DNA of 64,000 bases from Candidatus Thorarchaeota archaeon. Lineage in GTDB: Archaea; Asgardarchaeota; Thorarchaeia; Thorarchaeales; Thorarchaeaceae. Below the pieces are notes generated by a model. That model was not told the DNA's origin, made no database searches, and was given only the letters and a program-made list of their open reading frames with translations. Position numbers and translations under genes: made by a program. Position 1 is the stretch's first letter. The number at the start of each line of letters is the position of its first letter. Of this stretch, positions 39,037 through 50,387 are shown piece by piece. The stretch is taken from contig JBHLQH010000002.1 of NCBI GenBank assembly GCA_048884965.1, positions 1-64,000 of the forward strand, written 5' to 3'.

Positions 39037-41370
39037 ATGAGGAGCAGCACGAAACAAGTTATCGTGACATTTCTTAGCATTTCACTTCTGATAGTCTTCG
39101 CCTCACAATATGTCATTAGCTACCCCGGACAGACGACTGAATGTGATGCGTGCCACAACACCCAAGGGGTTCTCACCCTGACATCGAATGCAACTGGTAC
39201 GGTTGAAGTAGAGCTTGGTGGGTCGTTTTCCCTTCTTCTGGATTCTACCGGATATACAGGAGGAGATAACAACTACATCATTAGCTTACAGGCGGGATGG
39301 GAAGACAATAACCAATTCACATTCACGCCAACTGAAGTCGAAGATGGAGGGACTGGGGACTTGGATTCCAGTACCAATGAGATTCAAGCACTCTTCCCGT
39401 TCACAGCGAATAATGCTGGTTCCTTCACCATCCGCTTTTGGGTAGCTGCGGCTGGAGACCTGGCAACCAGCCTAGATGTATCTGTATCGGTCCTAGTACC
39501 TGCAGGAAGTCCTCCAGTCATTGATAGTCCAGCAGATATCGAGTACGACCTTGGCGACACAGGAAATTCAATCGTGTGGACACCCTCCGACGATAATCCA
39601 AGTTCATACGAGATATTTCTAGATAGCATCTCTGTTCGAACAGGAGCGTGGAACACCAGCGGAGAAACCATCTCAATAGTTGTGGATGGACACACTCTTG
39701 GGACGTATAATTACACATTACAAGTAATTGATGGAGATACCCTTTCTGCTAGTGATACTGTATTTGTCACAGTAAACGATCCAATCCCCATCGTAAGTTC
39801 GCCCAGCGATATCACCTACATGGAAGGTGGCACAGGCTACTCAAGGACATGGACAGCTACAGACAATAATCCCAGCTCCTATACGCTCTGGCTCGATGGT
39901 GCGATTCTAAAGACTGGACCATGGAATAGTAGCGGGGAAAGCCTGGTTGTGAATGTGGATGGATTATCTGTAGAGGTTCATAACTACACAGTAGTGTTCA
40001 CAGATTTGAATGATGGAAATGGCACTGATACAGTGCTCGTTCGAGTGAATAGCTATACTCTGCCCACAACTAATCATCCTCCTGATATCATTCAAGCCGA
40101 AGGCGGATCCGTGTATCTGTCGTGGGATGCACATGATCTGAATCCAGATGCCTATATCATATATCTGAATGACAGTAGTGAGAAATCTGGCCAATGGAAT
40201 TCAGCATCTCAAGCGCTCTTCATAAACAAGGGCGGTCTTGGTCTGGGGACTTTCAACTTCACGATTTGGGTAATCGATGATGACCTTAACACAGCCACTG
40301 ATACGGTATGGGTAACTATCTATGATGGGACAGCCCCAGTTCCGGGTTCGCCTTTAGACATCGAATATGATGAGGGTGATTTGGGTACCTATACTGTGTC
40401 TTGGACGCCTTACGACAAGTATCCTGACACCTATGAGGTTCTGAAGGATGGAGTTACAATCAAGTCAGGAGATTGGAACACAAGTTCGGATGTGATCTCT
40501 GTTGATGCTAGCGGGTTATCAGGAGGTGTCTATAATTACACACTAATTGTGACTGATGTAGGCTTGAACATTGGTATCGATACAGTATTGGTCACAGTGA
40601 ACGATATCACCCCACCCACAGTAGATGATGTCGAAGATTTTGCCTATGTTGAAGGTACGACAGGGCATTCGATAGTCTGGTCACCCTACGACCAGAATCC
40701 TACATCATATGAGGTATACCTAGAAACATCACTCTACAAGGAGGGGCTCTGGAACTCGAGCTCGGAAACTATCATCGTGGGAATCGATGGGCTACAGGAG
40801 GGTATCCATAATTTTACGATATATGTCTTCGATGTCAGTGATAATAATGCTAGTGACTATGTCCTCGTTAGTGTAAATGATGAGACTGTTCCACTCATCG
40901 ACAACCCAGCAGATATCGAGTTCAGCTCTGGGGAAACTGGAAATATAATCACATGGACTGCTACTGACTTGCACTTAGAGTCATATACAATCTATCTGAA
41001 TGGTACTGAGGATGATACATATACACTTGGCTCCTCGCCTGCTACTATTCAGTATGATGTGGATGATTTGAGTGAGGGGGTCCATAATGTGACAGTCCTA
41101 GTACAAGATGAGTCAGGCAATTCAGCTTCAGATGAGGTCATCGTAATAGTCATGCCAGCAACATCATCAACAACGACCACGACAACTACGACAGAAACAT
41201 CGACCACCACAACAGATTCCACAACGGGTTCCACAGATACCACAGATGGTCCTGAACCAGTCAATCCGACCCTACAGAACTATATCAACACAGTCTATAT
41301 CACATGGATTGCTTCAATCATTGCAATCATTGTTGGCTCAGAGGTATATAGACGGAAGTATGGTGATTAG
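39037..41370 (+). CDS. cell-surface protein: N-terminal CxxCH domain, six Ig-like repeats, Thr-rich linker, TM anchor
   Basis: Signal peptide; CDACH; six ~92-aa repeats P...P.DI.Y..G.TG..I.W...D..P..Y....G.WN...DGL..G..N(Y/F/V)T...D......D.V.V.V; poly-Thr; TM plus RRK. Confidence 0.85.
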   Translation: MRSSTKQVIVTFLSISLLIVFASQYVISYPGQTTECDACHNTQGVLTLTSNATGTVEVELGGSFSLLLDSTGYTGGDNNYIISLQAGWEDNNQFTFTPTEVEDGGTGDLDSSTNEIQALFPFTANNAGSFTIRFWVAAAGDLATSLDVSVSVLVPAGSPPVIDSPADIEYDLGDTGNSIVWTPSDDNPSSYEIFLDSISVRTGAWNTSGETISIVVDGHTLGTYNYTLQVIDGDTLSASDTVFVTVNDPIPIVSSPSDITYMEGGTGYSRTWTATDNNPSSYTLWLDGAILKTGPWNSSGESLVVNVDGLSVEVHNYTVVFTDLNDGNGTDTVLVRVNSYTLPTTNHPPDIIQAEGGSVYLSWDAHDLNPDAYIIYLNDSSEKSGQWNSASQALFINKGGLGLGTFNFTIWVIDDDLNTATDTVWVTIYDGTAPVPGSPLDIEYDEGDLGTYTVSWTPYDKYPDTYEVLKDGVTIKSGDWNTSSDVISVDASGLSGGVYNYTLIVTDVGLNIGIDTVLVTVNDITPPTVDDVEDFAYVEGTTGHSIVWSPYDQNPTSYEVYLETSLYKEGLWNSSSETIIVGIDGLQEGIHNFTIYVFDVSDNNASDYVLVSVNDETVPLIDNPADIEFSSGETGNIITWTATDLHLESYTIYLNGTEDDTYTLGSSPATIQYDVDDLSEGVHNVTVLVQDESGNSASDEVIVIVMPATSSTTTTTTTTETSTTTTDSTTGSTDTTDGPEPVNPTLQNYINTVYITWIASIIAIIVGSEVYRRKYGD

Positions 41371-48493: not shown

Positions 48494-48805
48494 ATGTCGA
48501 AGAAGAAGAAAATGGCAGAGCGTATCAAACGCACACGATACGATATCTTTGCAGAGCTGATTCGTGTCATCATGGTCTATGGCTACTGCCCACTAACAAG
48601 AGCTGCGCGATCTACCAATATGCCCGTGGATAGAGCAAAAGAGAGCATCCTAGAGCTAGTCGATAGAGGACTGCTACAATCCGATGATGATGAGGGTGGT
48701 ATCGTATACAGCGTTACTGTACGTGGTCACCAGTACCTTGAGATATATAAGCGACTGGCAGGACTTGTAGGCATCCCGATTCCAGAGCCCATCATCGGGA
48801 TGTAG
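48494..48805 (+). CDS. archaeal winged-helix regulator (HTH_45/COG3432-like)
   Basis: KRTRYDIFAELI...TRAARSTNM...LVDRGLL...YSVTVRG..YL. Confidence 0.85.
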   Translation: MSKKKKMAERIKRTRYDIFAELIRVIMVYGYCPLTRAARSTNMPVDRAKESILELVDRGLLQSDDDEGGIVYSVTVRGHQYLEIYKRLAGLVGIPIPEPIIGM

Positions 48806-48812
48806 TGATGTA

Positions 48813-48938
48813 TCATCCATGACACTGGAAGCAGTTGAGTGGGATGATACCATTTGTAAGGAAATGCATAGCGAACAAGAGACCATATCCAACCACGATG
48901 ATGGCCAACACAATAATCAGAATCTTCTTGATACTCAT
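48813..48938 (-). CDS. unannotated 41-aa single-TM microprotein with C-terminal CxxCH (candidate minimal c-type cytochrome)
   Basis: Manual translation MSIKKILIIVLAIIVVGYGLLFAMHFLTNGIIPLNCFQCHG*; ATG preceded by GGTG; fills the gap exactly, ending 7 nt from the convergent gene's stop. Confidence 0.7.
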   Translation of the reverse strand: MSIKKILIIVLAIIVVGYGLLFAMHFLTNGIIPLNCFQCHG

Positions 48939-49124
48939 TGTATTAGCACCGTATTTCTGCAACCATGAACCTTTAGTAGCTCTTATCTTTTACACCAAAC
49001 TCCGAAAAGAAGTCGGAAGGGTAGAAACATGATAGTAACAATATGTGACCCTAAAATGTGCTTTCGCTTTATATACCCAGAAAATCCTATTTTACTCAGT
49101 AGATAATTACAGGTGATAATTCAA

Positions 49125-50387
49125 ATGGCTGAAGATAATGAACAAAGAAGCTCTGGAAGCATGAAATACGAGAACCAGAGTGAGGTAGTCCTATCTCGGG
49201 TCGATGGTGACCTAGAAATTAGGAATTGCACTACTCTGGAGCCAGCTGAAGGCAATGAAATCATTGTCACTGGCGAAGTGAAAATCATGGGCGAGCTTGA
49301 GATTTTGGGATCGCTAAAAGCGGGTTCATTGTATGCGAGAACTAGAGAAACAATCCTCGTTGAAGGTGACCTCATCGTTGAAAGAAGTGCTCGGGTGGAA
49401 AAGGGAGCGCTTGAAGTGAGAGGGTCTGCAACTGGTCGTGATTTCAGAGCTGATTCCAGTCTTAGCATTGGAAAGAACCTAGACTGCACATCAGCCTCAG
49501 GTGGCGGATCGGTAAAAGTCGAAGGAAATGCAAAAGCTGAACGCATCAATGGAGGTGGCTCTGTCAAGATAGGTGGTGATGCAGAAGTATCTGAGATACG
49601 AGCAGGTGGATCAGCAAAGGTAGTTGGAACAGTACTAGCAGATGAGATCAAAGTTGGCGGTAGCGTCAAAGTCAACAAAGGAAAGATCGGTGTTGTTAAT
49701 GTTGGTGGGTCCTTCAAGGCTGAAGGAGCAGTCGAAGTTGATGAAATCGATGTCGGTGGCTCAGCAGTCGTAGGTCCAGGCTCGATCGTCCATTCAGTTG
49801 ATGTAGGCGGCAGCTTCAAGTCTACAGGCGAAGTTCAATTCGATAAGATTGATGTCGGAGGAGCTGTCAAACTTGGTGGTTCATCATCAGGAAAGATAAT
49901 TGACGTCGGCGGCTCTGTGCTAGTAGAAGGGGATCTTGAAATGGAAGATGATCTTGATGTTGGCGGAAAGGTCACAGTTGAGGGTAATCTGAAGTGTCTG
50001 AAGAAGATCAAGGTTGGCGGTACGCTCATCGTTGAGGGGCGAATTGATACCTATCGAGTAATTGTAGGTGGACGTGTTGAAGCGAAATATGTCAAGGCGG
50101 ATGGCTTCAGACTTGGTGGTCGCGGTGAAGTAACTGGACCCGTTGAGTCAAGGGAGATTCTTGTGAGAGAGCGAGCTCGAACTGAATCACTCTACGGTGA
50201 AGAGATCCGAATCGAAGAGAGATCAAGAGTAAAAGATGTATATGGTAAGGACATCTATATTGAACGTGGATCTATTGTAGAAGGTAATGTTGTATACACC
50301 GACACTCTAGAGTTGGAAGAGCGTGTAGAAGTGCGCGGCGAAACAAAGAAGGTAGATGAACTACCTCCTGCTGAAGATGTTCTGTAG
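49125..50387 (+). CDS. beta-helix repeat protein, bactofilin/polymer-forming-cytoskeletal-like
   Basis: About 20 units of ~16-17 aa, (I/V)xVGGS(V/F)xxxG; acidic; no signal peptide. Confidence 0.7.
   Translation: MAEDNEQRSSGSMKYENQSEVVLSRVDGDLEIRNCTTLEPAEGNEIIVTGEVKIMGELEILGSLKAGSLYARTRETILVEGDLIVERSARVEKGALEVRGSATGRDFRADSSLSIGKNLDCTSASGGGSVKVEGNAKAERINGGGSVKIGGDAEVSEIRAGGSAKVVGTVLADEIKVGGSVKVNKGKIGVVNVGGSFKAEGAVEVDEIDVGGSAVVGPGSIVHSVDVGGSFKSTGEVQFDKIDVGGAVKLGGSSSGKIIDVGGSVLVEGDLEMEDDLDVGGKVTVEGNLKCLKKIKVGGTLIVEGRIDTYRVIVGGRVEAKYVKADGFRLGGRGEVTGPVESREILVRERARTESLYGEEIRIEERSRVKDVYGKDIYIERGSIVEGNVVYTDTLELEERVEVRGETKKVDELPPAEDVL

What the first reader, a model, noticed from the sequence alone, without database searches (positions are those of the whole stretch)
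48813..48938. Hidden 41-aa membrane microprotein ending in a heme-binding CxxCH motif
Seen: an ORF below the track's length cut-off, MSIKK-[hydrophobic helix]-AMHFLTNGIIPLN-CFQCH-G-stop, with an SD-like GGTG upstream and no overlap with neighbours. The N-terminal KK predicts N-in/C-out topology, placing CxxCH outside where c-type heme is attached (established). Inference: a minimal membrane-tethered monoheme c cytochrome, with the nearby Met/His (AMH) or a partner subunit as distal ligand, perhaps oligomerising or acting as a small subunit of a redox complex. Proteins this small are routinely missed by annotation.
Basis: partly seen in the sequence, partly recalled or inferred. Interest (0 to 1): 0.78.

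Follow-up and report, generated by a model that had tools for sequence, protein, structure and literature searches.

The report
Tiny membrane protein with heme motif
A real, conserved 41-residue membrane protein of an Asgard (Thorarchaeota) archaeon carries a heme-attachment motif at its outward-facing tail and belongs to an undescribed family found almost only in relatives that can make c-type cytochromes, so it may be the smallest natural cytochrome c, though heme binding is still untested.

Summary
The ORF exists as described, on the minus strand (48813-48938), and it is a real gene. Two congeneric genomes hold syntenic copies in which synonymous sites are saturated but the protein is kept. 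A profile built from relatives finds about 30 copies in 26 of 86 genomes of one Thorarchaeota family, plus 19 unnamed clusters in public data, and at most one weak, stop-interrupted match in the other 314 Asgard genomes searched.

All intact members are 38-50 aa (one two-helix form is 78). They share a Lys/Arg-rich N-terminus, one TM helix and an acidic tail. Six residues are invariant: His25, Gly30, Pro33, Cys36, Cys39, His40. The CxxCH lies 0-7 residues from the C-terminus.

The genome encodes an archaeal-type CcmABCEF system beside a 7-CxxCH cytochrome. 23 of 26 carrier genomes have Ccm genes, against 22 of 60 non-carriers. Two of the three exceptions carry broken copies. The phylogeny-corrected test is underpowered (p about 0.13).

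Best reading (about 0.5): a Ccm-matured, membrane-tethered monoheme c microprotein with His25 as distal ligand. The main rival is a metal- or thiol-binding microprotein without heme.

No partner is known for the window's copy. A sister subfamily is translationally coupled to a Ccm-linked, Thorarchaeota-only membrane protein. No core tetrapyrrole synthesis genes were detected, so heme would have to be scavenged.

The parts
48813..48938 (-). Coding sequence of the 41-aa microprotein (subfamily 1), stop codon included
   Evidence: ORF listing and sequence. Syntenic homologues in G003 and G006 at about 50% identity. pN well below saturated pS. Family profile hits in 26 of 86 family genomes.
48947..48950 (-). 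SD-like GGTG, 8 nt upstream of the ATG
   Evidence: Read from the sequence. The two congeneric homologues have a full GGAGG 6-7 nt upstream of their starts. Function is inferred.
48983..48992 (-). A/T-rich TATA-like stretch 45-54 nt upstream of the ATG (candidate archaeal promoter)
   Evidence: Read from the sequence. A/T-rich blocks sit at a similar distance in the G003 and G006 upstream regions in alignment A2. Inference only, not tested.
48867..48923 (-). Transmembrane helix (residues 6-24), preceded by the Lys-Lys N-terminus
   Evidence: Kyte-Doolittle 18-residue maximum 3.03. The AlphaFold2 model on the 20-sequence alignment gives helix 3-29 with pLDDT above 90. Positive-inside statistics over 34 members.
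48864..48866 (-). Codon of invariant His25 at the outer end of the helix: candidate distal (sixth) heme ligand or metal ligand
   Evidence: Invariant in 20 intact members and in the 14 further database members examined. It lies 10-12 residues before the first Cys. The ligand role is inferred.
48840..48851 (-). Invariant Gly30 ... Pro33 helix break or turn
   Evidence: Invariant columns in alignment A5. The AF2 helix ends at residue 29.
48819..48833 (-). C-F-Q-C-H: the CxxCH heme c attachment motif (Cys36, Cys39, His40), one residue from the C-terminus
   Evidence: Read from the sequence. Invariant in intact family members. It is 0-7 residues from the C-terminus across the family.

Best explanation
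The gene encodes a single-span membrane microprotein. Its N-terminus is in the cytoplasm, and its 17-residue tail lies on the outer face of the cytoplasmic membrane.

The organism's archaeal-type cytochrome c maturation system (CcmABC-E-F, System I*) most likely attaches one heme covalently to Cys36 and Cys39. His40 would be the proximal ligand. The invariant Gly30/Pro33 turn would fold the tail back so that invariant His25, at the helix end, can serve as distal ligand. The result would be a low-potential, largely exposed bis-His heme c held at the membrane surface, in effect a natural membrane-tethered 'microperoxidase-like' cytochrome.

Its likely job is to act as a small redox-active relay or subunit between membrane proteins and the cell's extracytoplasmic c-type cytochromes.

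What is shown: the gene is real and under purifying selection, the predicted topology holds, six residues are invariant, Ccm is present, and the family co-distributes with Ccm. What is inferred: heme attachment, bis-His ligation, and the electron-relay role.
For: (1) Real gene. There are syntenic homologues in G003 and G006. Synonymous sites are saturated (pS 0.6-0.87) while pN is 0.19-0.34, and 0.08-0.22 in the C-terminal half. Homologues occur in unrelated genomic contexts in genera g3, g6 and g15.

(2) Invariant H25, G30, P33, C36, C39 and H40 in 20 intact members. The same pattern appears in 14 further database clusters.

(3) Topology. K/R against D/E is 69:10 in the N-segments and 1:20 in the tails. 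The AF2 helix spans residues 3-29.

(4) Maturation machinery in the same genome. CcmA, B, C, E and F lie at C6:108-113.6 kb, next to a 463-aa protein with 7 CxxCH motifs and a C-terminal anchor. CcmE has the archaeal C-x-x-x-Y motif (System I* as described in PMC3601427).

(5) System I recognises little more than CXXCH and matures 12-residue peptides (PMC3601427). C-terminal heme tags work in E. coli (PMC6962350).

(6) Distribution. The family is found only in genera g1, g3, g6 and g15. All of these belong to the five Ccm-bearing genera out of 16. 23 of 26 carrier genomes have Ccm genes against 22 of 60 non-carriers, and 17 of 18 genomes with an intact motif have them. Two of the three Ccm-less carriers have a broken copy, one His-to-Pro and one in-frame stop. 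On an RpoA1 tree the Ccm+/microprotein+ genera fall in three clades, each with sister genera lacking both.

(7) A sister subfamily abuts or overlaps the 3' end of a membrane-protein gene (P0005) that is itself found almost only in Ccm-bearing genomes, 26 of 27.
Against: No experiment shows heme, and no database family or solved structure matches.

The phylogenetically independent-pairs test of co-distribution with Ccm points the right way but is not significant (4.4 pairs same way, 0.4 opposite, median p 0.125).

Within Ccm-bearing genera many Ccm+ genomes lack the gene. About a third of copies are degenerate, with Cys-to-Gly/Ser/Arg changes, His-to-Pro, or stops, so the gene is dispensable.

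One intact copy sits in a genome with no Ccm gene found (G375, 85% complete).

His-x10-12-Cys-x2-Cys-His could equally make a tetrahedral metal site.

Sixteen extramembrane residues cannot shield a heme on their own.

No HemB, HemC or AhbA/B was found in this genome, so heme would have to be scavenged. The same caveat applies to the clearly maintained Ccm system and multiheme cytochrome.

The window's copy has no conserved neighbour that would point to a redox partner.
Confidence: 0.5

Rival explanations
1. It is a membrane-tethered metal-binding or thiol-redox microprotein without heme. In this reading His25, Cys36, Cys39 and His40 form a Zn, Cu, Fe or Ni site, or the CxxC pair cycles between dithiol and disulfide. 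The protein would act as a small regulatory or assembly subunit of a membrane protein. The resemblance to a heme c motif would be coincidental.
For: Four invariant ligand-type residues in an H-x10-12-C-x2-C-H arrangement. Many small single-span proteins are accessory subunits (general knowledge). Subfamily 2 is translationally coupled to a polytopic membrane protein that has no Cys and no invariant His across distant relatives. The gene is absent from many Ccm+ genomes.
Against: The ligand set lies on the extracytoplasmic side in an organism with an active-looking System I*. That system is reported to need little more than CXXCH, so heme attachment is the default expectation. The family is confined to Ccm-bearing genera, and broken copies occur where Ccm is missing. 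A metal site does not predict either pattern. The His directly following the second Cys is invariant, as in heme c sites.
Confidence: 0.25
2. The hydrophobic segment is a cleaved signal peptide. The product would be a secreted peptide of about 17 residues that starts at or near His25, either carrying heme c (a free natural microperoxidase) or closed by a disulfide (a signalling or RiPP-like peptide).
For: The N-terminus has the n-region plus h-region look of a signal peptide, and a small residue (Ala or Gly) is conserved two positions before His25.
Against: The hydrophobic run is 19-20 residues and is modelled as one long helix running through His25 to residue 29, which is typical of an anchor. 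The position three residues before the candidate cut is mostly Phe or Leu, which is unfavourable for type I signal peptidase (established specificity, from my own knowledge). No modifying enzyme or exporter is a conserved neighbour. No signal-peptide predictor was available, so this is not excluded.
Confidence: 0.08
3. It is a non-functional or decaying ORF. It could be a remnant of the TM-plus-first-heme module of a NapC/NirT/NrfH-type cytochrome, or a chance ORF kept open by neighbouring constraints.
For: TM helix, then 10-12 residues, then CxxCH is also the layout of the N-terminus of NapC/NrfH/CymA proteins (from my own knowledge). About a third of family copies are degenerate. A single TM-plus-terminal-CxxCH ORF per genome is not far from chance expectation.
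Against: Length, frame and six residues are kept across genera with saturated synonymous sites. Copies sit in at least four unrelated contexts, so no neighbouring constraint can explain the conservation. There is no match to the NapC/NirT profile for the microproteins or anywhere in the genome. No downstream remnants of further heme motifs are present, because the convergent gene starts 7 nt away.
Confidence: 0.04

Closest known systems
Membrane-anchored monoheme cytochromes c (e.g. cytochrome c_y of Rhodobacter, CccA/CccB of Bacillus); from my own knowledge
   Same: An N-terminal single-span anchor with one CxxCH on the outer face of the cytoplasmic membrane. These proteins are matured by a cytochrome c biogenesis system and act as membrane-attached electron carriers.
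   Different: They carry a complete class I cytochrome c domain of about 80-100 residues that encloses the heme and supplies a Met ligand. The microprotein has only 16-17 extramembrane residues. It matches no cytochrome c Pfam family, and its candidate sixth ligand is a His at the helix end.
NapC/NirT/NrfH/CymA family (Pfam PF03264), N-terminal module
   Same: A TM helix followed after roughly 10-18 residues by the first CxxCH. The local sequence style is similar, with an aromatic or small residue before Cys and Ser/Thr inside the motif.
   Different: Those proteins continue with three more heme motifs and a quinol site. This one stops 0-7 residues after the first motif. No profile similarity is detectable, and there is no PF03264 member in the genome.
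Microperoxidases and engineered C-terminal heme tags (Braun and Thony-Meyer, cited in PMC3601427 and PMC6962350)
   Same: Short peptides of 8-12 residues around CxxCH carry covalently bound, solvent-exposed heme c. E. coli System I matures them, including at a protein's C-terminus. Exposed bis-imidazole heme c has Em near -200 mV.
   Different: They are proteolytic or man-made products. This would be a natural, genome-encoded, membrane-tethered version with a conserved built-in second His.
Cytochrome b559 beta subunit PsbF, and other heme- or complex-associated single-span microproteins (CydX, CcoQ, PetG/L/M/N); from my own knowledge
   Same: Single-span proteins of about 40 residues. PsbF uses one His near the helix end to ligate a heme. 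The others are small accessory subunits of respiratory or photosynthetic complexes.
   Different: The heme of b559 is non-covalent and is shared between two subunits, with no CxxCH. There is no sequence relationship, and no complex partner is known for the window's copy.

Membership tests
c-type cytochromes (covalent heme c proteins matured by System I) | CxxCH (or a close variant) heme attachment motif | tested here: met
   C36-F-Q-C39-H40 in the window. Invariant in 20 intact members and in further database members. One lineage has Cx4CH.
c-type cytochromes (covalent heme c proteins matured by System I) | Motif located on the extracytoplasmic side of the membrane | tested here: met
   Prediction only. 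The positive-inside rule gives 69 K/R against 10 D/E in the N-segments and 1 against 20 in the tails over 34 members, with a single helix at residues 3-29. No experimental topology is available.
c-type cytochromes (covalent heme c proteins matured by System I) | A cytochrome c maturation system in the same genome | tested here: met
   CcmA, B, C, E and F are clustered on contig C6. CcmE has the archaeal Cys-type motif. ResB was not found.
c-type cytochromes (covalent heme c proteins matured by System I) | Covalently bound heme with c-type spectrum | not testable with these tools
   Needs expression followed by heme staining, pyridine hemochrome or mass spectrometry.
c-type cytochromes (covalent heme c proteins matured by System I) | A supply of heme in the cell | tested here: inconclusive
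   HemB (PF00490), HemC (PF01379) and AhbA/B (PF17805) were not found in the 95.7%-complete genome. The genome nevertheless keeps Ccm and a 7-CxxCH cytochrome, which implies uptake or undetected genes.
Class I cytochrome c fold (Pfam cytochrome c families) | Match to a cytochrome c domain profile, with a heme-enclosing fold of about 80 aa | tested here: not met
   No Pfam or NCBIfam hit even at E up to 10. No PDB sequence relative. Only 16-17 residues lie outside the membrane.
NapC/NirT/NrfH family (PF03264) | Profile match and four heme motifs after the N-terminal anchor | tested here: not met
   One motif only. No PF03264 hit for any of three members at E up to 10, and none in the genome.
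Zinc-ribbon or zinc-knuckle type metal sites | Four Cys/His ligands binding Zn, usually cytoplasmic | not testable with these tools
   H25, C36, C39 and H40 could form such a site, but they are predicted to be extracytoplasmic. Metal analysis is needed.

The most novel reading that the evidence does not exclude
The family may be a natural 'micro-cytochrome c': a peptide of about 40 residues whose entire extramembrane part is one heme c binding loop (His-x10-12-CxxCH). That would make it the smallest c-type cytochrome known.

In this reading it works at the cell surface of Thorarchaeota that appear unable to synthesise tetrapyrroles. It would act either as a minimal electron relay or as a heme capture and hand-off element. 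It would do so together with the Ccm system and, in the sister subfamily, with a Ccm-linked membrane protein of unknown fold (P0005).
Probability: 0.25. Interest if true: 0.85.

Novelty: new variant of a known kind. Interest (0 to 1): 0.62.

Why it matters
If the peptide is hemylated, it would set a new lower size limit for natural c-type cytochromes. It would show that evolution, not only protein engineers, uses the 'CxxCH is enough' rule of System I.

It would also add an unrecognised redox component to the poorly understood extracytoplasmic electron-transfer equipment of Asgard archaea, the closest prokaryotic relatives of eukaryotes.

The family, its Ccm-linked 9-10-helix partner protein and the apparent lack of tetrapyrrole synthesis together raise a testable question: how do these archaea obtain and deploy heme?

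More generally, the case shows that sub-50-aa genes with cofactor motifs can be validated from comparative genomics alone.

Tried and rejected
- Pfam, NCBIfam and PDB-sequence searches with the microprotein or its profile gave nothing.
- The exhaustive HMMER search of 1.84 billion representatives with the three-sequence genus profile found only its own cluster. The word-index search with that profile found only the three congeners. The wider family came out only through genome searches and a rebuilt profile.
- I looked for the ORF next to the wHTH gene in 30 related loci. It is present only in three genomes of the genus. Elsewhere the wHTH gene is followed directly by the bactofilin-like gene.
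- Function by neighbourhood failed for subfamily 1, which has no conserved partner across genera. In genus g6 it lies upstream of a 312-aa gene with no Pfam match, but the G000 orthologue of that gene has no micro-ORF beside it.
- The 9-10-helix protein P0005 gave a confident AF2 model (pLDDT 87) but no meaningful PDB fold match (best TM about 0.48, generic helical bundles). It has no Pfam or NCBIfam match.
- Complex prediction for P0005 + heme + the subfamily-2 microprotein returned 'no answer', which is neither support nor evidence against.
- ResB/System II was not found. NapC/NirT was not found.
- Phylogenetically independent-pairs tests of co-distribution are underpowered. A post-hoc combined trait (microprotein or P0005) against CcmE reached p about 0.03, but I defined it after seeing the data.
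- Earlier scan notes hold nothing similar, by sequence or by words.
- Literature searches found no description of such a protein.
- I considered a type I toxin-like hydrophobic peptide and a leader peptide. The six invariant ligand or turn residues argue against the first. The convergent arrangement in the window argues against the second.

Full report
**Observation.** The ORF is real and sits on the minus strand of the window (ATG 48938-48936, TGA 48815-48813).
- It encodes 41 residues: a Lys-Lys N-terminus, a hydrophobic segment of about 19 residues, then His25, a short tail and C-F-Q-C-H-G-stop.
- GGTG lies 8 nt upstream of the start.
- The gene is convergent with a highly conserved winged-helix gene (48494-48805, Pfam HTH_45). 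Only 7 nt separate the two stops.
- On the other side it is divergent from a bactofilin-domain gene (49113-50387).
- Pfam finds nothing in the ORF.
- In the whole 4.09-Mb genome it is the only one of 32,717 small ORFs that combines a TM-like segment with a terminal CxxCH. From the same counts, roughly 0.3 such ORFs would be expected by chance, so the single sequence proves little.

**It is a gene.**
- A search of 40 related genomes found full-length matches in two genomes of the same genus (E 1e-11 and 1e-10). Both lie convergent with the same winged-helix gene.
- The three proteins are about 50% identical, and 15 columns are invariant.
- Synonymous sites between these genomes are saturated, both in this ORF (pS 0.6-0.87) and in the neighbouring gene (pS 0.76-0.95). 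Non-synonymous divergence in the ORF is only 0.19-0.34, and 0.08-0.22 in its C-terminal half. Unconstrained DNA at this divergence would have kept neither frame, length nor motif.
- The two relatives also have a full GGAGG 6-7 nt before their start codons.
- A name attached to one homologue identifies the organisms as Candidatus Thorarchaeota.

**It belongs to a wider, undescribed family.**
- The three-sequence profile searched over 400 Asgard genomes picked up weaker hits in other genera of the same family. These turned out to be ORFs of 39-46 aa with the same architecture.
- A rebuilt profile found copies in 26 of 86 genomes of that family, in genera g1, g3, g6 and g15 only.
- A 20-sequence profile found one weak match interrupted by a stop codon, and nothing else, in the other 314 Asgard genomes.
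- In the 5.8-billion-protein collection the family has 19 clusters of 38-78 aa. All are unnamed or 'hypothetical protein', with no Pfam domain.
- Across 20 intact members the invariant residues are His25, Gly30, Pro33, Cys36, Cys39 and His40.
- The His-to-Cys spacing is 10-12 residues, and the motif ends 0-7 residues from the C-terminus. One lineage has Cx4CH and an extra N-terminal helix.
- There are two subfamilies. Subfamily 1 is the window's type. Subfamily 2 has the tail A-W-H...S-G-T-x-P-F-G-L-C-S-E-C-H.
- About a third of the copies found in genomes are degenerate: second Cys to Gly or Ser, first Cys to Arg, His to Pro, or in-frame stops. The gene is therefore dispensable in many lineages.

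**Topology and shape.**
- Over 34 members the segment before the helix holds 69 Lys/Arg and 10 Asp/Glu. The tail from His25 onward holds 1 Lys/Arg and 20 Asp/Glu. That is a clear positive-inside signature for N-in/C-out.
- AlphaFold2 on the family alignment gives one confident helix (residues 3-29, pLDDT above 90), a break at Gly30, and a less ordered tail.
- The hydrophobic run is long for a cleaved signal peptide, and the position three residues before a hypothetical cut is mostly Phe or Leu. I therefore favour an uncleaved anchor, but could not run a signal-peptide predictor.

**Can the organism make heme c proteins?** Yes, as far as genes show.
- Contig C6 carries CcmA, CcmB, CcmC, CcmE and CcmF.
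- CcmE has the Cys-x-x-x-Tyr motif of the archaeal variant, System I* (the variant is described in PMC3601427).
- Directly beside the cluster is a 463-aa protein with seven CxxCH motifs, a Thr-rich linker and a C-terminal membrane anchor.
- System II (ResB) and NapC/NirT-type cytochromes were not found.
[quoted passage not shown] C-terminal heme tags are matured in E. coli, and such exposed bis-imidazole hemes titrate near -200 mV (PMC6962350).
- An extracytoplasmic CxxCH in a Ccm-containing cell is therefore expected to be hemylated by default.

**Distribution.**
- CcmE occurs in 38 of the 86 family genomes and CcmC/F in 45, in genera g1, g3, g6, g11 and g15 only.
- The microprotein family occurs only in four of these five genera.
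- 23 of 26 carrier genomes have a Ccm gene, against 22 of 60 non-carriers (naive Fisher p 1e-5). 17 of 18 genomes with an intact motif have one.
- Of the three carriers with no Ccm gene, two have broken copies (G381 His to Pro, G042 in-frame stop). The third is 85% complete.
- An RpoA1 tree of 70 genomes shows that the Ccm-bearing, microprotein-bearing genera are not one clade. The groupings are g1 with g2 and g8, g3 with g4 and g11, and g6 and g15 with g9. In each group the sister genera g2, g8, g4 and g9 lack both features.
- The formal independent-pairs test points the right way (4.4 same, 0.4 opposite) but has too few pairs to be significant (median p 0.125).
- I count this as supportive, not decisive.

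**Context.** Subfamily 1 has no conserved partner.
- In the window's genus it lies tail-to-tail with the winged-helix gene.
- In genus g6 it lies about 60 nt upstream of a 312-aa gene with no Pfam match, in ten genomes. The G000 orthologue of that gene has no micro-ORF beside it.
- In g3 the neighbours differ again.

Subfamily 2 is different. In five genomes of three genera, plus two degenerate cases, its start overlaps or abuts the stop of a Thorarchaeota-only membrane protein of about 315 aa (P0005).
- P0005 has no Pfam or NCBIfam match.
- It gives a confident 9-10-helix model but has no PDB fold relative.
- It is found in 27 of 86 genomes, 26 of which have Ccm genes.
- Most P0005 loci lack the micro-ORF, and the window's genome lacks P0005 altogether.
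- The coupling suggests that at least subfamily 2 works as a small subunit of a Ccm-linked membrane protein. This cannot be carried over to the window's copy with confidence.
- A complex prediction returned no answer and is not counted either way.

**A caveat and a curiosity.** The genome (95.7% complete) gave no hit for porphobilinogen synthase, porphobilinogen deaminase or siroheme decarboxylase. Heme for the Ccm system, the multiheme cytochrome and this peptide would have to be scavenged, or made by undetected genes. This does not single out the microprotein. It does leave room for a role in heme handling rather than electron transfer.

**Verdict.**
The topology, the motif, the maturation system and the phyletic pattern all fit a membrane-tethered monoheme c microprotein. 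The conserved sixth-ligand candidate is His25 rather than the neighbouring Met.
- I put heme c at about 0.5, a heme-free metal or thiol site at about 0.25, a cleaved secreted peptide at about 0.08, and a non-functional remnant at about 0.04.
- The family is not a member of any described cytochrome family. It works most like a natural, anchored version of microperoxidases or heme tags, and it resembles the first module of NrfH/NapC proteins in layout only.
- Expression with a Ccm system, followed by heme staining and mass spectrometry, would decide the matter.

Noticed in passing
L071:537-1490 (+) and homologues (alignments A4, A6); absent from the window's genome: A Thorarchaeota-only membrane protein of about 315 aa with 9-10 helices (P0005). 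It has no Pfam or NCBIfam match and no PDB fold match. It is found in 27 of 86 family genomes, 26 of which carry Ccm genes. In 5-7 genomes a CxxCH micro-ORF of subfamily 2 overlaps or abuts its 3' end, and a TrmB-type regulator gene is divergent upstream.
   Followed up: partly
whole genome G000 (contig C6:104-114 kb = L042 for the Ccm cluster): The genome keeps CcmABCEF and a 7-CxxCH, C-terminally anchored cytochrome (L042:4276-5667). It gave no hit for HemB, HemC or AhbA/B, so it looks like a tetrapyrrole auxotroph that still makes c-type cytochromes.
   Followed up: partly
window about 49040-49085 (+): A DNA block upstream of the bactofilin-like gene (GTGACCC-TAAAATGTG-C-TTTCGC-TTTATATA) recurs downstream of the winged-helix gene in several other genera. 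In one search it shows up as the same spurious translation. It is probably a conserved promoter or operator of the bactofilin-like gene.
   Followed up: no
window 48806-48812: The stops of the micro-ORF and of the convergent winged-helix gene are only 7 nt apart, and no T-run follows. The two transcripts probably overlap antisense at their 3' ends.
   Followed up: no
window 39037-41370 (+): A 777-aa surface-type protein with PKD/Ig-like repeats and a single CxxCH.
   Followed up: partly
L076:1501-1644 (-) and protein P0138: A variant of the family with a Cx4CH motif (C-S/A-G-S-G-C-H). In the 78-aa form it has a second N-terminal TM helix.
   Followed up: no
L052:1087-1380 (-) and L079:1054-1353 (-): A 98-99-aa membrane protein with a C-terminal CxxC...CxxC zinc-ribbon-like tail. 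It is conserved next to a GDPD gene and to the 312-aa gene with no Pfam match. In genus g6 the micro-ORF sits in the divergent gap between them.
   Followed up: no
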